Shown here piece by piece: positions 12,411-32,679 of a stretch of 64,000 nt of DNA. This DNA is from Sporosarcina sp. (GTDB lineage Bacteria > Bacillota > Bacilli > Bacillales_A > Planococcaceae). Where the stretch lies: contig JAPFCR010000032.1 of NCBI GenBank assembly GCA_026169375.1, positions 24,266 to 88,265 of the forward strand. The letters run 5' to 3'. Each line of letters starts with the position of its first letter. Within the stretch, counting starts at the first letter, position 1. A model generated the notes under the pieces. The model worked only from the letters and a program-made list of their open reading frames with translations. It had not been told where the DNA came from and ran no database searches. The position numbers were made by a program, and so were the translations under genes.

Positions 12411-14768
12411 CTACTCAGTAACTAACTTTAATATGTGCCCATCTTCTATTTTCCCAACTAAAACAGACTCATAAAAATGCCCATCCACCCAATCATCGAC
12501 TGCACTATGATACCACTTTGATTTTATATGACCGCTCTGACTTGGCGCAACAATCTGGTGAGTTGAAGATAAATCTTCCAGATCAGCAACAAATCGCCAC
12601 GGCGCACCGTGGTTTACTGTTCCATCCTTTTTAAAAGCAGCCGCTTGCACTGTAATATTTGATCCACCAAGCTCTCGTTTTTCCGGCTCCAAAAACTTTT
12701 CAAAAATTGCAGATGCACTTGATAGTGGATGCGGAAAAGTCACTTGGTGATAGTCTCCCCAACGCCATTTACTTATATCTTCTCCAAAGGTTGCCATCGT
12801 ATTTTCAACTGATTGTTCAAAAGCATCGAAAACCCATTCATCAATTCCGCCGTATGCACTTACCCATTCTCCTGGATTTTTTGCATAGCCATCTCTAAGC
12901 ATCTGATCTGTAATCTGTCCTTTTCCAGGCATCATTGCATAGACATCCTTTGGTATTTCATCAGCAAACATGGTCGTTGGCAACTGTTTAATCCACTTAT
13001 GGAAAATTAACGGCGCTGCCTCGTCGACTTCGTCAAACTGGTTCCAATCCTCTAAAACAGTCATAAACGCTTCATATTTCCCCTCTGAATCTTTCACTTG
13101 AACTGAACGGATCATATTCGGTAAAAATTCCCGTGCATATAAGTTTTTCTGATCCATTTGTAATGCCATCATATCATCAGCGGTAAACGCATCGCCTGTT
13201 TCCAACACTTCCGCAATTCTTTCATATCGATAAGGTTGTGCCCAAAACTTCGTAATATGGTACGGGTATTCATCCCCAACAACTTCATTATTCGCCGTGG
13301 CAATAAACCCTTCTTTGGGATTCACAACGCGCGGAAGTTCGTCATAGGGAACATATCCTTCCCAACCATATTCAGAAGAATCTCCAGGTACGGGAAGTTG
13401 GCCATCCCCTTTTTTACGAAGTGGAATACGTCCATTCGCTTTATACGCTATCGTTCCGTCTTTTGAAGCAAACACAAAGCTTTGCGCAGGTGCATGGAAA
13501 TCTTCTAACCCTTTCTCAAAACCTTGCCAATCTGTTGCTTTGTTTATATTTAAAATTGCTTCTAACTCTTTTGTCGGCTCAAGTGCAGTCCATTGCATAG
13601 AAAACAGTGCATCTGGATCTTCCTCTTTATAAAGAATGTCTGAAACAATCGGTCCGTGACGCGTCACAACGACTTCAAACGGAATGTCTTCCCCGTCTTT
13701 CACATGAATCGTCTCATCTCTTACTTGGGCTTTCTCCCACTTCCCATCATACAAAAACTCTGCAGGATCATCTGGATTCGGTTGTTCAATATATAAATCT
13801 TGCACATCTGGACCTACATTCGTCACACCCCAAGCGATCTCTTCGTTATGCCCTAAAATAATGCCTGGCACTCCCGCAAAAATCACACCTCCAACATTTT
13901 GTTCAGGCGATTGTAAGTGCATCTGATACCAAATCGAAGGGGTATTTAACCCAAGATGTGGATCATCAGCTAGTAATGGGAAACCGCTTTTTGTTTTCTC
14001 CCCGGCAACTACCCAGTTGTTACTTCCATTGAATTCAGGCGGCAATAAACTAGCATCAAATCTTCCTGCAACTTGAACAGGCGTCTTTAAGTTTGCCTCA
14101 ATAATAGAAGGTGAATTATCAGGGTATTCAATAAATAATTCTTTTGCTTTTTCTTCTTCAAAATGATTTAGCGCCCAGTGTCTTACCGCAAGCGTATCCC
14201 AATGCCCACCTAAGTCATAAGCCATGAACTTTCCAATCGTCAGCGAATCTATCGCTGTCCACGGTTCGGGTGTATAGCCTAATAGTTTAAATTCATAAGG
14301 CAGTTTACTAGATGCGGTTGCTTCTTCAATAAACGCATTCACACCTTCAGAAAACAAATCAAGTACTTCTTTGGCTTCAGTCCCGTATCCCTCGTAAGAA
14401 TCTTCTGCGGCGGCTCGTAAACTAAACGTCCGGAAATGTTTATCCGTATCCACTGCAGCTTCTCCAACAACTTCTGCAAGCCGACCGCTCGCTTGCCTTC
14501 GCGACATATCCATTTGAAAAATTCGGTCCTGCGCTTGCACATATCCTTGTGCCCTATAAAGATCAGCATCCGATCCCGCATCGATATGCGGGATGCCGTA
14601 TTCATCACGCGTCACAATGACTTCCGCATCTAAAATGGGTACCTTCACCTCTCCTTCGATAACTGGCTTTGATTTTCCAATATACATATTCAAAAAGACG
14701 ACTGCACAAATGAGCAAAACGCCAAGTACACCGACTCCCCATAATAAACCTTTCACCCAACGATTCAT
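12411..14768 (-). CDS. Penicillin acylase family (S45 Ntn-hydrolase), N-terminal membrane anchor
   Basis: RDEYGIPHI, AQGYVQAQDR and beta-subunit start SNNWVV; DPHL motif. Confidence 0.92.
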   Translation of the reverse strand: MNRWVKGLLWGVGVLGVLLICAVVFLNMYIGKSKPVIEGEVKVPILDAEVIVTRDEYGIPHIDAGSDADLYRAQGYVQAQDRIFQMDMSRRQASGRLAEVVGEAAVDTDKHFRTFSLRAAAEDSYEGYGTEAKEVLDLFSEGVNAFIEEATASSKLPYEFKLLGYTPEPWTAIDSLTIGKFMAYDLGGHWDTLAVRHWALNHFEEEKAKELFIEYPDNSPSIIEANLKTPVQVAGRFDASLLPPEFNGSNNWVVAGEKTKSGFPLLADDPHLGLNTPSIWYQMHLQSPEQNVGGVIFAGVPGIILGHNEEIAWGVTNVGPDVQDLYIEQPNPDDPAEFLYDGKWEKAQVRDETIHVKDGEDIPFEVVVTRHGPIVSDILYKEEDPDALFSMQWTALEPTKELEAILNINKATDWQGFEKGLEDFHAPAQSFVFASKDGTIAYKANGRIPLRKKGDGQLPVPGDSSEYGWEGYVPYDELPRVVNPKEGFIATANNEVVGDEYPYHITKFWAQPYRYERIAEVLETGDAFTADDMMALQMDQKNLYAREFLPNMIRSVQVKDSEGKYEAFMTVLEDWNQFDEVDEAAPLIFHKWIKQLPTTMFADEIPKDVYAMMPGKGQITDQMLRDGYAKNPGEWVSAYGGIDEWVFDAFEQSVENTMATFGEDISKWRWGDYHQVTFPHPLSSASAIFEKFLEPEKRELGGSNITVQAAAFKKDGTVNHGAPWRFVADLEDLSSTHQIVAPSQSGHIKSKWYHSAVDDWVDGHFYESVLVGKIEDGHILKLVTE

Positions 14769-14839: not shown

Positions 14840-14875
14840 AAAAAAAGATGCAAACCAATTTTGATTTGCATCTTT
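14840..14875 (-). terminator. Intrinsic terminator downstream of hemH
   Basis: AAAGATGCAAA...TTTGCATCTTT with A-tract (U-tract on minus strand). Confidence 0.75.
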
Positions 14876-14902: not shown

Positions 14903-15835
14903 TTATAGTTGATTCAGGACAACCTTTGCTAATGTTTCGATAAATAACGGGTCTGTATTTGGCATTTTTGGACGGTAATAATTTGCGCCCACTTCATCAC
15001 AGACAACTTTACATTCATAATCATTGTCATACAACACTTCTAAATGATCGGAAACAAAGCCAACTGGTGTATAGACGAAGCTTTCATAGCCTTTTTCAGC
15101 ATGTAAATCACGTGTTAAATCTTGTACATCTGGACCTAACCACGGATCTGGTGTATTACCTTCACTTTGCCATCCAATCTCATATTGAGTAATGCCAGCT
15201 CCTTTAGCAATCAGCCTTGCCGTTTCAGCGAGTTGTTCAGGGTATGGGTCGTTGTCTTGTAAAATCTTTTCAGGAAGACTATGAGCCGATACGATTAAGA
15301 CAGCTTTTTTTCGCTCTTCTTCTGACATGGTTGCATAGGTTTCTTTAATATTATTAACCCAAAACTCAATGAATCCAGGGGCATCGTACCAATCTTCGAC
15401 TGAATAAAGTTTAATGCCGTATTGATCAGCGCTTTCTTTCGCTCGACTGTTATATCCTTTAATACTAAAAGTAGAATAATGCGGTGCTAACACTAATGTT
15501 ACTGCTTCTGTAATGCCCTTTTCATCCATTTCTGCAACCGCATCTTCGATAAATGGATGAATATGTCTTAAACCGATAAATAGTTCAAACTCATACGTGT
15601 CTTGCATGTCATTCAATTTCTCAGTAATGGCATTTGCTTGCTCTTCTGTAATACGCGCTAACGGGGAGATTCCACCAATTGCATTGTAGCGATCTTTAAG
15701 ATCTTGAAGCGCTTCTTCTGATGGTTTACGCCCGTGACGAATATGTGTGTAATACGGTTCAATATCCTCTTCTTTATACGGTGTTCCGTATGCCATTACT
15801 AGTAAGCCGATTTTTTTCTTATCCATCTTATCCAC
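14903..15835 (-). CDS. hemH: Coproporphyrin ferrochelatase (HemH/CpfC)
   Basis: MAYGTP, SAHSLP (catalytic His), WQSEG and [10 protein letters not shown] motifs. Confidence 0.95.
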
Positions 15836-15898: not shown

Positions 15899-16708
15899 TT
15901 AATTACGCGGAACATCTTTTATTTTACTCTCTACTAAACCTGTCGCTGTAAATGTTGGAATCCCGTCTTCTTTAATGATATTTGCATGAACCGAAAATAC
16001 TTCTCGAAATAATGCTTCATTCATCACTTCGGTTGGGACCCCACTTTTCACAACTTCTCCGTCTTTCATCACGATTAAATAATCACTATATTTCGCCGCC
16101 TGGTTAATATCGTGTAACACCATCACAATTGTCATATCTAATTTCTCATTTAAATACCGGACTAATTCCATCACTTCTAGCTGATGGGAAATATCTAAAT
16201 AAGTTGTTGGTTCATCTAATAGTAAAATATCTGGAGACTGCACAACAGCCATCGCAATCCATGCTCGCTGACGCTCCCCACCCGATAACTGTTGAATAGG
16301 CTTATCTTCCAAATGCTTTAAATTCGTAATTGAAATTGCCCAATCGATTGTATTAAAATCTTCTGTTGTCAGTTTTTCATACCACTTTCGGTGTGGAAGA
16401 CGTCCATGTGAGATTAGTTCTCGGACAGTTAAATCCAAATCATTATTTTGTACTTGAGAAAGCATCGTCATTTTTTTAGCCAGTGCCTTAGCTTTCATCG
16501 CGGATACTGATTGATCGTTAATCACAACAATTCCTTGATCCGGTTTAATTAAATTGGTCAGTACTTTTAAAAATGTCGACTTCCCTGACCCATTCGGTCC
16601 GATAATACTCGTCACCTGCTGTGGTGGAAACTGTAAAGAAATCCCTTCCAATGAAAACGTTGGTGACTGTTTGTAAACAATATTTTCAGCTGTTAGTTTT
16701 TGTGTCAA
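15899..16708 (-). CDS. Iron-chelate/tetrapyrrole ABC transporter ATP-binding protein
   Basis: Walker A GPNGSGKST, LSGGERQRAW, DEPTTYLD. Confidence 0.92.
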   Translation of the reverse strand: MTQKLTAENIVYKQSPTFSLEGISLQFPPQQVTSIIGPNGSGKSTFLKVLTNLIKPDQGIVVINDQSVSAMKAKALAKKMTMLSQVQNNDLDLTVRELISHGRLPHRKWYEKLTTEDFNTIDWAISITNLKHLEDKPIQQLSGGERQRAWIAMAVVQSPDILLLDEPTTYLDISHQLEVMELVRYLNEKLDMTIVMVLHDINQAAKYSDYLIVMKDGEVVKSGVPTEVMNEALFREVFSVHANIIKEDGIPTFTATGLVESKIKDVPRN

Positions 16709-16724
16709 GATTGATCACCCTTGT

Positions 16725-17705
16725 TTACTCTTTTGCAATGCTTTCTAATTCTTCATGTAAATAATCTAAAGAGTCGATGATTCGAGATCCAGGGTTCGCA
16801 CCGAATAAGTCATTTGGCAAACCAATAAAATGATCTTCTTGTACTGCTTGTATATTTCCCCATGCAGGATTTTGTTCCATTTCTTTTGTAAATGCCGCAA
16901 CCGTTTCTTCATAAGGTCCAGCTGTAATAAAGAAAATGACTTCTGGATCCGCTTCAACAATTTTTTCCATATCTAATTGTGCGTATTGCGGAAACCTTTC
17001 TAGTTTCTCATAGTCTTCTGCGATATTATAACCACCTACTGCATCCAGCATATTTCCTGATAGCGAGTCAGGTAGTGCCACCATCCAGTTTCCTGCAGAA
17101 CCAAAAATAATTAATGTTCTTAGTTTGTCTGCTTCATCTTGGTTAGCTTGGTCTGACGCTTCTTCAATATTTTTTATAAGTTCAGCTGCGTTCTCTTCCT
17201 TTTGTACAAGTTTACCAAGAATTTCAATGGACTCTTTCACTTCATCAATCGAATTGGCACCCATTTGTACTACGCCTATTCCTAACTCCTCTAATGCTGG
17301 AATTACATCCTTATTTAACTGTGGGTGTGCAATCACAACATCTGGTCGTAAACTAGCAATTTTTTCGACATTTACATCGTTCGACGTTCCTACTTCGGGG
17401 ATTTCTTCGATTTCTTCACGCATATTCCCCCGAATCACTGGCCTACCTACAGCCGTTTCACCTAAATCATAAAGTGTATTTAAATCTCCAGCTGTTAATG
17501 AGACAATTCGTTCCGGAGCAGCTTCTAATTCCACTTTATTTCCTTGTAAATCTGTCAGTGAAATCCCGCTATTTTCTTCACTTTCTGATTGCGTTTCATT
17601 TTGATCTGTTTCTTTGTTTTCTTTATTTGCATTGTCATTTCCACAAGCCGCTACGATTAAAAGCAAACTTAACATGAGTAACGTCAATGATAATTTCTTT
17701 TTCAA
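16725..17705 (-). CDS. Class III substrate-binding lipoprotein (IsdE/BtuF-like fold)
   Basis: Lipobox VAAC; PERIVSL, NVEKIASLRPDVVI and MEKIVEADPEVI repeats; C-terminal layout resembles IsdE. Confidence 0.85.
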   Translation of the reverse strand: MKKKLSLTLLMLSLLLIVAACGNDNANKENKETDQNETQSESEENSGISLTDLQGNKVELEAAPERIVSLTAGDLNTLYDLGETAVGRPVIRGNMREEIEEIPEVGTSNDVNVEKIASLRPDVVIAHPQLNKDVIPALEELGIGVVQMGANSIDEVKESIEILGKLVQKEENAAELIKNIEEASDQANQDEADKLRTLIIFGSAGNWMVALPDSLSGNMLDAVGGYNIAEDYEKLERFPQYAQLDMEKIVEADPEVIFFITAGPYEETVAAFTKEMEQNPAWGNIQAVQEDHFIGLPNDLFGANPGSRIIDSLDYLHEELESIAKE

Positions 17706-17722: not shown

Positions 17723-18781
17723 TTACATTACTTTTCCTTTTCGTAATAAATATAAAAAGAATGGCGCACCTAATACCGCTAACAAAACACCGACTGGCAA
17801 TTCAATTGGCTCAAACCAACTTCTCGCTGCTGTATCCGCAAATATCACTAAAGCGCCGCCTAATAGAGCAGATGTAGGCAATAAATATTTATAATCATTC
17901 CCAATCAAAAGTCGAACCATATGCGGTACAACTAACCCTACAAACCCTAATAAACCGGCCACACTCACCGCAGCACCTGCTAAGAACGTACTTAACAACA
18001 GTAATAATAAACGATGCTTTTCTACATTATACCCGAGCAACTTTGCTACATCGTCGCCTAAGCGAAGAATATTCACAGACCGCGATGCAAAAAGGGATAA
18101 AACAAGTCCAATCACTGCATAAGGAAGAATGATTTTTAAATGTGGCCAACTTTTCCCACTAAGACCGCCCATTAACCAAGACAAAACAGTTTGTACTTTA
18201 TCGCTATATACAATCATAACGCCAGACGTAATGGCGCCTAAAAATGTATTAATGGCTACCCCCGCAAGTATTAACCGTAAAGGTGCCACACCACCATTCC
18301 ACGCCAATCCATAGACAAGAGCTGCTGCTATAAAAGCACCGATGAATGCACCGATTGGAACAAGCCCAGTATAAGCAGGAAAGATAAGCATTGTAGAAAC
18401 AGCGACTAATCCTGCACCAGAAGAAACTCCGATAATCCCTGGATCTGCTAATGGATTACGCATGATTCCTTGTAAGATTCCGCCAGAAACCGCAAGACAC
18501 ATTCCTACTAACAGACCTGTCAATAGTCGTGGTAAGCGTAAATTCCAAACAATTTGGTGCTCTATCGTCCCTTCTTCTCCAAAAATGCCATTAAGTACTT
18601 CACTCACAGTGAGCGTGACAGATCCCGTTGCAAGTCCATAAATGAGCGATATAATCACTAGCAAAAAGCAACCGACTAAAAGGAATATTCTATTTCTTCC
18701 AACCGAATCACTTTTAGCGTCTTCACCTTTTGCATGTTCATCGATCAGATCCACCTCATTCTTTTTGTCAAACGTTTTCAT
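17723..18781 (-). CDS. FecCD-family ABC permease
   Basis: LRLPR, RNPLADPGIIG and GFVGLVVPH motifs; likely start MKTF behind GGAGG (track start 18796). Confidence 0.92.
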   Translation of the reverse strand: MKTFDKKNEVDLIDEHAKGEDAKSDSVGRNRIFLLVGCFLLVIISLIYGLATGSVTLTVSEVLNGIFGEEGTIEHQIVWNLRLPRLLTGLLVGMCLAVSGGILQGIMRNPLADPGIIGVSSGAGLVAVSTMLIFPAYTGLVPIGAFIGAFIAAALVYGLAWNGGVAPLRLILAGVAINTFLGAITSGVMIVYSDKVQTVLSWLMGGLSGKSWPHLKIILPYAVIGLVLSLFASRSVNILRLGDDVAKLLGYNVEKHRLLLLLLSTFLAGAAVSVAGLLGFVGLVVPHMVRLLIGNDYKYLLPTSALLGGALVIFADTAARSWFEPIELPVGVLLAVLGAPFFLYLLRKGKVM

Positions 18782-18957: not shown

Positions 18958-19704
18958 TCATTCATTCTCAAAAAATGATTCAAGCGCTTCTTTTGATAAA
19001 TAATGCCCAACGTAAAACGGACCATAATCCGTGTACTTAGCATGCACCTCATCAAACCGACTATCAGACAGCAGTTTTTTAAATTGCATTGGATCATCAC
19101 AAAATAAAGAGACGCCCCATTCATAGTCATCAAAGCCAATCGATCCGGTGACTATTCTCTTCACATCTTTTGAGTAAGGTTTGACGGTGTCAATATGATC
19201 ATACATTATACGTCCACGTTCTGCCTTAGAGAGAGCATACCAGTTATTCACTTCTCCTCTTTGCTTACGCATCGGATAAAAACATATATGCGCCTCTTTT
19301 GGAATTTCCGGATACAACTTTGCACGCATCACTGGGTCTTCATAAGGATTTGTCTCAAGTTTCGTATATGTACTTTTTTCAATGACTGATACATATGAAT
19401 AGGCTGGTTTCGTAAAATGCGCAAGCGCAGTTTTATTCCAAGCTGTTTCTAACTGATTTAACTCTTTCATTGTTGGGCGTAAAAACATCATAAGAAAATC
19501 TGCTTTCTGGCCAAGTATCGAATAAATCGCATGACTTCCTTCTTCACGATCTTCAGTCCTTTGCCAACCGTCAATCATATCATAAAGTTCTTTAAGCGCT
19601 GCCAAACGATGATCTTCTGAAGCACATGCCCACTTTTCCCAATCAAAAGTACGAAAATCATGTAAAGCGTACCACCCGTCGAACGTTTCTACTTTTCCTG
19701 ACAT
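18958..19704 (-). CDS. ChdC/HemQ-like heme protein, divergent paralog with distal Arg (Cld/ChdC/DyP superfamily)
   Basis: DGWYALHDFR, GQKADF, CFYPM, NNWY and GFDDYEWGV motifs; Tyr143, Lys147, His170 present; Arg183 where ChdC has Gln. Confidence 0.85.
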   Translation of the reverse strand: MSGKVETFDGWYALHDFRTFDWEKWACASEDHRLAALKELYDMIDGWQRTEDREEGSHAIYSILGQKADFLMMFLRPTMKELNQLETAWNKTALAHFTKPAYSYVSVIEKSTYTKLETNPYEDPVMRAKLYPEIPKEAHICFYPMRKQRGEVNNWYALSKAERGRIMYDHIDTVKPYSKDVKRIVTGSIGFDDYEWGVSLFCDDPMQFKKLLSDSRFDEVHAKYTDYGPFYVGHYLSKEALESFFENE

Positions 19705-20060
19705 TTCAAGTATTCCTCCCTTTCTCTAATTCATTTTTTCCTTTTGGTTTTTATTAAGCTATTCCACGCCTGTTTTCAGTAAGACAGGCGCGTGAATAAC
19801 TAAATAACAATCCACGACCCGGCACTGATTCAAAAACAATTGAGTATCTTTCTCCAAAATGCCATAACTTTTATTATACTCCATTAATTGCGTTGTTTCT
19901 TTGAATTTATCGACATTTTTGTGACTTGTTATGTTAATGATAATATTCTCTTTAGGACCAAATTCGATAATATTGTGAAGTTCACTTCAAAAATATTAAT
20001 TTATGCTATAGTATTTTAAGATATATTAAAATACACACAACAAGGAGAGATTAATTCATC

Positions 20061-20810
20061 ATGGCAGAAGCTGTTGAAACAATGGATGGTTGGTATGTAT
20101 TACACGATTTACGAAAAGTCGATTGGACGAAGTGGAATAAGGCATCTGTAGAAGAAAGAAATGCTGCATTAAAACAATTCAAAGAGCATTATCTTGCATG
20201 GGATGAAAACGAGAAAAAAGAGGAAGGATCCTTTGGTATCTTTCATATTGTTGGCCAAAAAGCCGATCTTATGTTTACACTTTTAAGACCGACATTAGAA
20301 GAAATTCTCGATGCAGAAACTGCATTAAATAAATCTGCTTTAGCAGAGTTTCTGATTCCTACTGACTCTTATATGTCTGTTGTCGAGTTGTCAAAATATC
20401 GTCCCGACCAAGACGGCATAGACCCAGAAACATTACCTGAAACTCAAAAAAGACTTAAACCAATACTTGAAAAATGGGAGTATGTCTCTTTTTATCCGAT
20501 GAGTCGAAAGCGCGAGGGCGAAGACAATTGGTATACATTAGAAAAGAGTAAACGTGGAAAATTATTATATGAACATAGCATTACTGGAAGAAAATATACC
20601 GGAGAAGTGAAGCAAATTATTACAGGGTCAACTGGTTTCGATGAGTGGGAATGGGGCGTTACATTATTTGCCCATGATTACTTACAGTTGAAGAAAATCG
20701 TTTATGAAATGCGCTATGATACGGCGACTGCACGATATGGCCTATTTGGTGACTTCTACACTGGAAAGACACTCACATTTGAAACACTCGAAGAAATGAT
20801 GCACGTCTAA
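20061..20810 (+). CDS. hemQ: Coproheme decarboxylase (ChdC/HemQ) homolog
   Basis: DGWYVLHD, SFYPM, DNWY, HSITGRKY, VKQIITGS and VYEMRYD motifs; RBS AAGGAG. Confidence 0.85.
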   Translation: MAEAVETMDGWYVLHDLRKVDWTKWNKASVEERNAALKQFKEHYLAWDENEKKEEGSFGIFHIVGQKADLMFTLLRPTLEEILDAETALNKSALAEFLIPTDSYMSVVELSKYRPDQDGIDPETLPETQKRLKPILEKWEYVSFYPMSRKREGEDNWYTLEKSKRGKLLYEHSITGRKYTGEVKQIITGSTGFDEWEWGVTLFAHDYLQLKKIVYEMRYDTATARYGLFGDFYTGKTLTFETLEEMMHV

Positions 20811-26704: not shown

Positions 26705-26841
26705 TAAAATGAAACTTCAATCAGTGAAAAACTTCCACTGATGAAAGGGAATACAAGCTTAGAGCGTCACGTCCTGTGACAACGCTTGTATAACCAACCT
26801 CATGTTGGCCAGAGCCAATCTGGCTTTAATGCGGGATGAAA
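26705..26841 (+). repeat. bcr1-like interspersed repeat, copy A (internally deleted)
   Basis: Begins (T)GAAACTTCAATCAGTG...CACTGAT and ends TTAATGCGGGAT(G)AAA; shares internal module with copies B and C. Confidence 0.85.
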
Positions 26842-29075: not shown

Positions 29076-29295
29076 ATAAAGTGAAACTTCAAACAGTGGG
29101 GGTTTTCTTCATCCACCACTGATTGAAAAGGAACACAAGCTAAGTGCGACACGTCCTGTGTCAACGCCTGCGTGACCAACGTCGTGTTGGCCCGAACCAA
29201 TCGGGATTTTACGGGCAGCCCGACTCCCACTTATCTTTAGCGTTTTCACTTAAATCTTGAAGTGGGAGTCTTACTGCCCGTTAATGCGGGATAAA
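29076..29295 (+). repeat. bcr1-like interspersed repeat, copy B (longest, 220 bp)
   Basis: Flanked by ATAAA direct repeats (TTTAT on minus strand); CAGTGGGGGTTTTCTTCATCCACCACTG and ACTCCCACTT...AAGTGGGAGT hairpins. Confidence 0.9.
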
Positions 29296-32493: not shown

Positions 32494-32679
32494 TTTATCT
32501 CGCATTAACGGAGAGTCAAGCCTTCACTTTAAAAACACAAGTGAGGACAACTGTCCATAAAAGCCTAACTGAGGTCAACATGACGTTGGACACACAAGCG
32601 TTGTCACGAGACGTGATGCGCTCAGTTTGTGCTCCTTTTTATCAGTGATAGTTCGTCACTGATTGAAGTTTCACTTTAT
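32494..32679 (-). repeat. bcr1-like interspersed repeat, copy C (inverted)
   Basis: TTTAT direct repeats at both ends; reverse complement begins AAAGTGAAACTTCAATCAGTG and ends TTAATGCGAGATAAA. Confidence 0.9.

What the first reader, a model, noticed from the sequence alone, without database searches (positions are those of the whole stretch)
16725..17705. IsdE-like binding protein apparently lacking both heme-iron axial ligands
Seen: EVGTSNDVN and FFITAGPYEE. Known: S. aureus IsdE ligates heme iron through Met78 (GQPMEPN) and His229 (RLPHGMPEE). By-eye alignment puts Asn and Ala at those positions, while the surrounding layout (LIIFG..G, QYAQLDME, PEVIF, W...AVQ) stays IsdE-like. Inference: the pocket may suit an iron-free tetrapyrrole, which independently supports the salvage hypothesis. 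A corrinoid ligand (BtuF-like) is the main alternative, but no cobalamin riboswitch is visible.
Basis: partly seen in the sequence, partly recalled or inferred. Interest (0 to 1): 0.7.

Follow-up and report, generated by a model that had tools for sequence, protein, structure and literature searches.

The report
IsdE-like binding protein without heme ligands
This lipoprotein is the capture subunit of an uptake pump descended from heme importers; its lineage lost both iron-holding residues and its genes moved next to the last enzymes of heme synthesis, so it most likely imports a heme precursor (coproporphyrin) rather than heme as an iron source.

Summary
The ORF at 16725-17705 (-) is a lipoprotein substrate-binding protein (SBP) of a FecCD/BtuCD-type ABC importer. 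Its closest solved relative in sequence and fold is S. aureus IsdE with heme. Asn109 and Ala262 sit where IsdE has the axial ligands Met78 and His229.

This is a clade trait, not a one-off. Thirty homologues form one clade (SH-aLRT 99) with N/K/I/V at the first position and P/A at the second. The sister clades are strictly His/His, and a true IsdE (Met/His) lies outside.

Operon partners switch with the residues:
- His/His operons (SBP-permease-ATPase) carry an IsdG-like heme oxygenase in 19 of 20 loci and a Fur box in 17 of 19.
- No-ligand operons (permease-SBP-ATPase) never carry the oxygenase. In 13 of 15 they carry CpfC with or without ChdC, an AhbD-like radical SAM enzyme, or a ChlI-ChlD-ChlH-like chelatase.

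In this genome the only ferrochelatase has left hemE-hemH-hemY and ends the importer operon. No Fur box and no B12 riboswitch were found here.

Best reading (about 0.5): import of coproporphyrin III, or possibly coproheme, for heme synthesis. The ligand is unproven. A new invariant His127 in the pocket could still ligate a metal. The scan has not noted this on other DNA.

The parts
16725..17705 (-). Substrate-binding lipoprotein (326 aa), IsdE-like cluster A SBP of the no-ligand clade. Asn109 = 17379-17381, His127 = 17325-17327, Ala262 = 16920-16922, lipobox Cys21 = 17643-17645.
   Evidence: PF01497 139 bits. IsdE model 151 bits, below the 298.65 cut-off. phmmer alignment to 2q8p. AF2 pLDDT 91.7. 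Foldseek and VIA best match is IsdE-heme, Z 28.1. Codons checked.
17723..18781 (-). FecCD/BtuC-type permease. The likely start is ATG 18781 after GGAGG; the ORF can be read from GTG 18796.
   Evidence: PF01032 340 bits. Start context.
15899..16708 (-). ABC ATPase of the importer.
   Evidence: PF00005 115 bits; FecE, heme and FhuC-type ATPase models 217-272 bits, all below their cut-offs.
14903..15826 (-). CpfC (HemH), the only ferrochelatase found in the genome and the last gene of the importer operon. ATG 15826 follows a GAGGTGG ribosome-binding site.
   Evidence: NF009095 552 bits, above the 455 cut-off. Single PF00762 hit in the genome. Same-genus genomes keep cpfC between hemE and hemY.
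14844..14875 (-). Intrinsic terminator (14-bp stem and T run) closing the operon after cpfC.
   Evidence: No terminator was found between the ATPase gene and cpfC.
18958..19704 (-). ChdC1, an extra coproheme decarboxylase paralogue co-oriented just upstream of the permease. It has Arg183 where ChdC2 has Gln.
   Evidence: NF008913 316 bits, above the 253 cut-off. 45% identical to ChdC2.
20061..20810 (+). ChdC2, the housekeeping-type coproheme decarboxylase, divergent from the operon. It is the orthologue of the ChdC linked to the same importer in L068 and L064.
   Evidence: NF008913 322 bits. 87% and 71% identity to the L068 and L064 ChdC.

Best explanation
The gene encodes the extracellular lipoprotein receptor of a type II (BtuCD/FecCD-like) ABC importer for a coproporphyrin-type tetrapyrrole. 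The ligand is most likely metal-free coproporphyrin III, held in the inter-lobe cleft without protein-to-metal bonds. The ancestor was a Fur-regulated, bis-His heme-binding protein that served heme-iron acquisition with an IsdG-like oxygenase. On the stem of this clade both axial residues were lost and the cleft was remodelled: invariant His127, Asn131, Phe201 and Asn298, plus Arg92, Trp207 and Tyr226. The operon also changed partners. In this organism the imported porphyrin would be metallated by CpfC, whose gene has moved into the operon, and decarboxylated to heme by ChdC, encoded next door. This bypasses the eight earlier steps. Shown: homology, fold, residue loss, clade structure, operon and regulatory contrasts, and cpfC relocation. 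Inferred: the ligand's identity, its metal-free state and the direction of flux.
For: (1) IsdE is the best sequence and structure match, with Asn and Ala at the Met78 and His229 positions.
(2) The no-ligand state defines one clade of 30 sequences (SH-aLRT 99). It groups with two His/His clades, and an IsdE-type protein lies outside. Among the 150 nearest 50%-identity clusters out of 1.84 billion proteins, only 2 carry this signature.
(3) Partner switch. His/His operons have an adjacent IsdG-like ABM gene in 19 of 20 loci and a Fur box with at most 2 mismatches in 17 of 19 (about 4% of random 450-nt windows). No-ligand operons have 0 of 15 ABM genes. Thirteen of 15 carry CpfC with or without ChdC (window, L063, L064, L068), the AhbD-like rSAM TIGR04053 (L056, L059, L062, L108), or ChlI-ChlD-BchH-like genes (L061, L069, L070, L072, L073).
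(4) L064 is a compact permease-SBP-ATPase-CpfC-ChdC unit.
(5) The sole cpfC of this genome lies in the importer operon while hemE-hemY are adjacent elsewhere. Four same-genus genomes without this importer keep hemE-cpfC-hemY.
(6) TIGR04053 is independently tied to heme synthesis: it sits beside a HemY paralogue in 13 same-genus genomes.
(7) The window, L063, L064 and L068 have no Fur box, with a best match of 4-5 mismatches.
(8) A close relative (L068 genome) holds both a His/His importer and this one, so the two are not redundant.
(9) Clade-specific changes add polar and basic side chains and remove Glu226, which fits a tetracarboxylate ligand (inference).
Against: There is no binding data and no model coordinates, so the cleft geometry was not measured. 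His127 is invariant and clade-specific at a ligand-contacting position, and Met208 is invariant; either could ligate a metal. Single axial-ligand mutants of another heme SBP, CgHmuT, still bind heme (PMC4926363). The basal ChlIDH-linked members have 1-mismatch Fur boxes and a Crp/Fnr-type palindrome. That suits anaerobic iron harvest from an iron porphyrin by an HmuS-like dechelatase (PMC12583661). The organism has hemB, hemE and hemY and so makes its own coproporphyrin; salvage is not a necessity. The fold separates IsdE from siderophore binders only weakly (Z 28 against 26-27). One complete context has no tetrapyrrole neighbour (L071), and L107, on a contig cut upstream, shows none either.
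Confidence: 0.5

Rival explanations
1. It imports a metalloporphyrin (coproheme, heme b or another metal-coproporphyrin), bound either without axial bonds or through new ligands such as His127 or Met208. The cargo is finished to heme by ChdC or the AhbD-like enzyme, or is stripped of iron by the linked chelatase-type enzymes.
For: His127 and Met208 are invariant, and His127 aligns with a B12-contacting Trp of BtuF. The rSAM-linked members have only a coproheme-decarboxylase-like partner. ChlIDH-linked members have Fur and Crp/Fnr sites, which resembles HmuS-type iron harvest (PMC12583661). Heme SBPs tolerate the loss of one axial ligand (PMC4926363).
Against: Both canonical ligand positions were lost together and stayed lost in 30 of 30 members, whereas almost all neighbouring families keep His, Met or Tyr at one or both. 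Heme b import needs neither CpfC nor ChdC, yet those are the partners in the window's subclade. There is no Fur box there. The Cytobacillus H subunit is 1243-1251 aa and closest to BchH, with canonical ChlI and ChlD. That differs from the HmuS described in PMC12583661, which is over 1400 aa, membrane-anchored and ATP-independent.
Confidence: 0.3
2. It imports an iron chelate (siderophore or ferric citrate type) that supplies iron to ferrochelatase and the other chelatases.
For: Cluster A SBPs for siderophores are nearly as close in fold (Z 26-27). How iron reaches CpfC is an open question (PMC10991733). The basal members are Fur-regulated.
Against: The clade nests among heme-binding His/His and Met/His proteins. 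Siderophore-SBP models score far below their cut-offs (SstD 67 of 450, FecB 60 of 320). There is no Fur box in the window's subclade. A link to ChdC or to an AhbD-like decarboxylase has no logic for iron supply. No siderophore esterase, reductase or synthesis genes lie nearby.
Confidence: 0.08
3. It is a BtuF-like corrinoid or corrinoid-precursor binding protein.
For: BtuF also holds its tetrapyrrole without ligating the metal. The next sequence neighbours below 30% identity are annotated as cobalamin-binding. CobN-like chelatases flank some relatives.
Against: BtuF model 59 bits against a cut-off of 234. No cobalamin riboswitch in the window or in 8 related loci. The partners are CpfC, ChdC and an AhbD-like enzyme. 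The H subunit scores higher as BchH (791 bits) than as CobN (607-643 bits).
Confidence: 0.05

Closest known systems
IsdE of Staphylococcus aureus (PDB 2Q8P, TIGR03659) and Listeria Lmo2184 (5JOQ)
   Same: Lipoprotein cluster A/class III SBP of a type II ABC importer. It is the best sequence hit (E 3e-19, 24% identity) and the best structural hit (Z 28.1, rmsd 2.4 A over 255 of 258 residues). The cleft layout and many framework motifs are shared.
   Different: It scores half the IsdE equivalog cut-off. The Met78 and His229 equivalents are Asn and Ala. The gene order is permease-SBP-ATPase. There are no isd, NEAT or IsdG neighbours and no Fur box. It is linked instead to CpfC and ChdC.
Unnamed bis-His IsdE-like heme importers of Bacillales (e.g. 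Halalkalibacter hemicellulosilyticus P0035, and same-genus homologues)
   Same: Nearest sister clades (34-42% identity), with the same fold, the same transporter type and the same host families.
   Different: They keep His at both axial positions. Their order is SBP-permease-ATPase followed by an IsdG-like oxygenase, and they have Fur boxes. They co-exist with the no-ligand importer in one close relative.
BtuF, the vitamin B12-binding protein
   Same: It binds a tetrapyrrole in the same cleft without any protein ligand to the metal. His127 and Ser108 occupy the positions of two BtuF tryptophans in the alignment.
   Different: Only 22-25% identity, and far below the family cut-off. There is no B12 riboswitch, and the neighbours are heme-pathway genes rather than cob or cbi genes.
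Hmu system of Bacteroidota (HmuS dechelatase, PMC12583661)
   Same: A heme-type uptake system joined to a class I chelatase-family protein and iron regulation, as in the Cytobacillus and Fredinandcohnia members of this clade.
   Different: HmuS is over 1400 aa, membrane-anchored and ATP-independent, and works with a TonB receptor. The relatives here have a soluble 1243-1251 aa BchH-like subunit with canonical ChlI and ChlD. The window's own operon has CpfC and ChdC instead.
Protoporphyrin IX salvage by heme auxotrophs that keep only late enzymes (e.g. P. gingivalis HemH, PMC13096392)
   Same: The logic is the same: take up a porphyrin and finish heme with a retained ferrochelatase.
   Different: Those organisms use the protoporphyrin branch, are auxotrophs and have no assigned porphyrin-specific ABC importer. 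This organism has the full coproporphyrin-dependent pathway.

Membership tests
IsdE (TIGR03659 equivalog) | Score at or above the curated cut-off of 298.65 bits | tested here: not met
   151.4 bits. A same-genus IsdE (G039) scores 368.3.
IsdE (TIGR03659 equivalog) | Axial heme-iron ligands Met78 and His229 | tested here: not met
   Asn109 and Ala262 at the aligned positions.
IsdE (TIGR03659 equivalog) | Two-lobe cluster A SBP fold with a single long connecting helix | tested here: met
   AF2 pLDDT 91.7. 2q8p is the best match: TM 0.87, Z 28.1.
IsdE (TIGR03659 equivalog) | Encoded with Isd or heme-degrading genes under Fur control | tested here: not met
   No ABM/IsdG gene in 15 no-ligand loci. 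No Fur box upstream.
IsdE (TIGR03659 equivalog) | Binds heme | not testable with these tools
   Complex prediction with heme was not folded and gives no evidence either way.
Bis-His IsdE-like heme SBPs of Bacillales | His at both axial positions; SBP-permease-ATPase-ABM operon; Fur box | tested here: not met
   N/A instead of H/H, permease-SBP-ATPase order, no ABM gene and no Fur box.
Peripla_BP_2 (PF01497) SBP of a type II ABC importer | Pfam domain, lipoprotein signal, adjacent FecCD permease and ABC ATPase | tested here: met
   139 bits against a 27.5 cut-off, FecCD 340 bits, ABC_tran 115 bits. Lipobox LIVAAC.
BtuF (NF002894) | Score at or above 234 bits and a cobalamin riboswitch or cob/cbi context | tested here: not met
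   59.3 bits. No RF00174 hit in the window or in 8 related loci.
Ferric-siderophore or ferric-citrate SBPs (SstD, FecB, FepB, FhuD models) | Score above the family cut-off and Fur-regulated iron-uptake context | tested here: not met
   67 of 450, 60 of 320, 31 of 205 and 28 of 374 bits. No Fur box in the window's subclade. Fold similarity alone is high (Z 26-27), so fold does not decide.
Proposed coproporphyrin-type importer (no-ligand clade) | N/K/I/V and P/A at the two axial positions, plus His127, Phe201, Asn298 and Trp207; permease-SBP-ATPase order; linkage to CpfC/ChdC, AhbD-like or ChlIDH genes | tested here: met
   The defining ligand itself is untested.

The most novel reading that the evidence does not exclude
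This would be the first dedicated importer for a heme precursor (coproporphyrin III) in bacteria that use the coproporphyrin-dependent pathway. It evolved from a heme-iron piracy system by deleting both iron ligands and capturing the cell's only ferrochelatase gene. Its relatives trace a stepwise series. First come bis-His importers with a heme oxygenase under Fur. Next come ligand-free importers with an ATP-driven chelatase under Fur and a Crp/Fnr-type regulator. Then come importers with an anaerobic AhbD-like decarboxylase, and finally importers with CpfC and ChdC. Porphyrins excreted by neighbours would then be a traded commodity.
Probability: 0.4. Interest if true: 0.82.

Novelty: new variant of a known kind. 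Interest (0 to 1): 0.7.

Why it matters
Gram-positive bacteria excrete coproporphyrin III, yet no uptake system for it is described; my literature searches found none. A receptor that has given up iron coordination, with the terminal heme enzymes attached to its operon, gives a concrete and cloneable candidate. It also offers a natural experiment in how a heme-binding pocket is re-tuned, with only a few changed positions.

Two open questions become testable in cultured Cytobacillus, Fredinandcohnia and Sporosarcina. One is the missing oxygen-independent coproheme decarboxylase of this pathway (PMC10965808), for which TIGR04053 is a candidate. The other is the function of ChlIDH-type chelatases in non-phototrophic Bacillales. 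For annotation, these proteins should not be named heme or iron-siderophore binding proteins by homology alone.

Tried and rejected
- Complex prediction of the SBP with heme was not folded by the tool, so it is no evidence either way.
- Model coordinates are not exposed. Distances from His127 or Met208 to the cleft centre could not be measured, and pocket positions rest on alignment to IsdE and BtuF and on secondary-structure logic only.
- The IsdE structure paper (JBC 2007) is not held. The numbers Met78 and His229 come from my own knowledge, checked against chain-index arithmetic.
- I briefly suspected that His127 and Tyr226 match the CgHmuT ligands His141 and Tyr240. After allowing for construct numbering, those map near position 109 and the 203-207 hairpin, so I dropped the idea. 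This is approximate, because no residue-level alignment was available.
- The Fur-box scan of the window gave chance-level counts (12 found, about 10 expected) and no site in the operon's promoter regions.
- The Rfam scan found only Bacillaceae-1 RNAs.
- The sequencing-run search found only a mouse-gut metagenome holding 12% of the words and no RNA data; read laying was not used.
- The upstream regions of the window, L063 and L068 share an AAATTCAAA-rich motif but nothing I could assign.
- A degenerate or pseudogenised SBP was rejected. The clade shows 62% mean column identity with 56 invariant columns, intact signal peptides and intact operons.

Full report
**What is there.** The minus strand of the window carries these genes in order:
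- chdC1 (18958-19704);
- a FecCD-type permease (17723-18781);
- the substrate-binding protein (SBP) under study (16725-17705);
- an ABC ATPase (15899-16708);
- cpfC/hemH (14903-15826);
- a strong intrinsic terminator (14875-14844).

A second chdC (20061-20810) lies divergently upstream. The SBP starts at TTG 17705, 8 nt after GGAGG. It has a lipoprotein signal ending in LIVAAC. The finding's coordinates are therefore exact.

**The observation.** phmmer against all PDB chains ranks S. aureus IsdE (2q8p) first (E 3e-19) and Listeria Lmo2184 second. In the printed alignment, Asn109 lies under the Met of GQPMEPN and Ala262 under the His of LPHGMPEE. An AlphaFold model built on 60 homologues is confident (pLDDT 91.7). 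Its best structural matches are again IsdE-heme and Lmo2184:
- Foldseek gives TM 0.86-0.87.
- VIA-align gives Z 28.1, rmsd 2.4 Å over 255 of 258 residues.

Siderophore binders follow closely (Z 26-27) and BtuF scores Z 23.9, so fold alone does not fix the ligand. The IsdE equivalog model scores 151 bits against a cut-off of 298.65. BtuF and the siderophore models score far lower.

**A clade trait with a single origin.** Database searches gave about 30 close homologues (47-82% identity). These are mostly metagenomic, plus an uncultured Sporosarcina MAG, Cytobacillus solani, C. praedii, C. massiliigabonensis, Fredinandcohnia quinoae and Paenibacillus sanfengchensis.
- All of them lack both ligands: N, K, I or V at position 109 and P or A at position 262.
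- The next relatives (34-42% identity) are common in the window's own taxonomic family (33 of 200 genomes). All of these read His and His.
- One same-genus genome has a true IsdE with Met and His, scoring 368 bits.

In a maximum-likelihood tree the no-ligand sequences form one clade (SH-aLRT 99). It joins two His/His clades, and the IsdE type lies outside. Among the 150 nearest representatives of 1.84 billion proteins, only two clusters carry the no-ligand signature. Most of the others keep His, Met or Tyr at one or both positions.

Clade-specific invariant or near-invariant residues are His127, Asn131, Phe201 (Tyr in His/His), Asn298, Arg92, Trp207 and Tyr226 (Glu in His/His). They sit in loops that follow beta strands and face the cleft. 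His127 aligns with the Trp of BtuF's VIAW motif.

**Operon partners change with the residues.** His/His operons have the order SBP-permease-ATPase.
- In 19 of 20 loci they have an adjacent small ABM protein whose best matches are IsdG-family heme oxygenase models.
- In 17 of 19 they have a Fur box with at most 2 mismatches upstream, against about 4% of random 450-nt windows.

No-ligand operons always have the order permease-SBP-ATPase and never have the ABM gene. In 13 of 15 informative loci they are joined to one of three partners:
- CpfC with or without ChdC: the window, L063, L064 and L068. L064 is a compact permease-SBP-ATPase-CpfC-ChdC unit.
- A 377-aa radical SAM/SPASM protein of family TIGR04053: L056, L059, L062 and L108. 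Its nearest characterised relative is the heme b synthase AhbD (about 380-390 bits).
- ChlI-, ChlD- and BchH/CobN-like subunits of an ATP-driven class I chelatase: L061, L069, L070, L072 and L073.

These partner types follow the tree. Chelatase-linked members are basal, rSAM-linked members are intermediate, and CpfC/ChdC-linked members, including the window, are the most derived.

TIGR04053 is independently tied to heme synthesis. In 13 same-genus genomes it is followed by a HemY/CgoX paralogue, and in another genome it is preceded by a Crp/Fnr-type regulator.

**The ferrochelatase moved.** The genome (2.87 Mb, 90% complete) has a single ferrochelatase hit, the one in this operon. It has hemB, hemE and hemY on another contig, with hemE and hemY adjacent and no hemH between them. 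Four complete same-genus genomes that lack the no-ligand importer keep the canonical hemE-cpfC-hemY.

So cpfC is not a spare 'salvage' copy. It is the housekeeping gene, relocated to the 3' end of the importer operon beside chdC. The Sporosarcina MAG has the same arrangement. That MAG also keeps a separate His/His importer, so the two systems are not redundant.

**Regulation.** I found no Fur box upstream of the operon in the window, L063, L064, L068 or the rSAM-linked loci; the best matches have 4-5 mismatches, which is background. The chelatase-linked basal members have 1-mismatch Fur boxes. They also have a TGTGA-N6-TCACA palindrome next to a divergent Crp/Fnr-family regulator. No cobalamin riboswitch occurs in the window or in 8 related loci.

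**Interpretation.** The simplest account is a tetrapyrrole importer that descended from heme-iron acquisition systems and stopped coordinating iron. It became coupled to enzymes whose substrates are coproporphyrin III (CpfC) or coproheme (ChdC and the AhbD-like enzyme). For the window's subclade, the operon content and the absence of iron regulation fit import of metal-free coproporphyrin III, followed by CpfC and ChdC. I put this at about 0.5.

The main rival (about 0.3) is import of coproheme, heme or another metalloporphyrin, held without axial bonds or through the new His127 or Met208. The Fur and Crp/Fnr control of the basal members fits an iron-bearing cargo and anaerobic iron release there, by analogy with HmuS (PMC12583661). 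The Bacillales enzymes nevertheless look like canonical ATP-driven chelatases rather than HmuS.

Heme SBPs can keep binding heme after losing one ligand (PMC4926363), so residue loss alone is not proof. Iron-chelate and corrinoid ligands are unlikely, for the reasons given under the rival explanations.

**Novelty.** Full-text searches found no described coproporphyrin importer or comparable SBP. A 2024 paper states that the oxygen-independent coproheme decarboxylase of this pathway is still unknown (PMC10965808). The protein is a new variant of a known kind, an IsdE-like cluster A SBP, with a well-supported change of role and an unproven ligand. Earlier notes of this scan concern this window only; nothing similar was noted on other DNA.

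Noticed in passing
L093-L105 (same-genus genomes, e.g. G039:C1:642336-644876); L088: The radical SAM/SPASM family TIGR04053 (nearest relative AhbD) is followed by a HemY/CgoX paralogue (41-42% identical to the housekeeping HemY) in 13 same-genus genomes. In L088 it is preceded by a divergent Crp/Fnr regulator. It is a candidate for the still-unknown anaerobic coproheme decarboxylase of the coproporphyrin pathway. The window's own genome lacks it.
   Followed up: partly
L070:8018-18469 (Cytobacillus solani); also L061, L069, L072, L073: A six-gene operon, permease-SBP-ATPase-ChlI-ChlD-BchH-like (H subunit 1243-1251 aa), in non-phototrophic Bacillales. It has a 1-mismatch Fur box, a TGTGA-N6-TCACA palindrome and a divergent Crp/Fnr-family regulator. 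The function of this class I chelatase is unknown: chelatase or dechelatase.
   Followed up: partly
L047:6677-7585 (-), L048, L050, L055; L061:10575-11489: Divergent ferrochelatase-like genes (25-26% identical to CpfC, below the family cut-offs) follow the His/His heme importer in one genus and the chelatase operon in L061. They keep the catalytic His and Glu.
   Followed up: partly
L038:12344-13101 and homologous loci L039-L046: His/His heme importer operons carry a conserved 139-aa protein with weak ankyrin-repeat matches between the ATPase gene and the IsdG-like oxygenase gene.
   Followed up: no
window 18958-19704 (-): ChdC1 is an extra paralogue (45% identical to ChdC2) found only in the window's version of the operon. 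It has Arg183 where ChdC2 has the distal Gln, as another first-stage note says.
   Followed up: partly
G000:C28:86657-91458: hemB, hemE and hemY lie together with hemE-hemY adjacent and no hemH between them. This is the scar of the cpfC relocation.
   Followed up: yes
window 19765-19794 (-): A GC-rich hairpin (CGCCTGT ... ACAGGCG) sits about 60-90 nt upstream of chdC1, in the 356-nt region between the two divergent chdC genes. No T run follows it.
   Followed up: no
window 26742-26808 (+), 29124-29190 (+), 32575-32641 (-): Three Bacillaceae-1 RNA (RF01690) matches above the gathering score.
   Followed up: no
window 12411-14768 (-): A penicillin amidase family gene (785 aa) follows the operon's terminator. 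The same neighbour follows cpfC in L063, so it is syntenic but a separate transcription unit.
   Followed up: no
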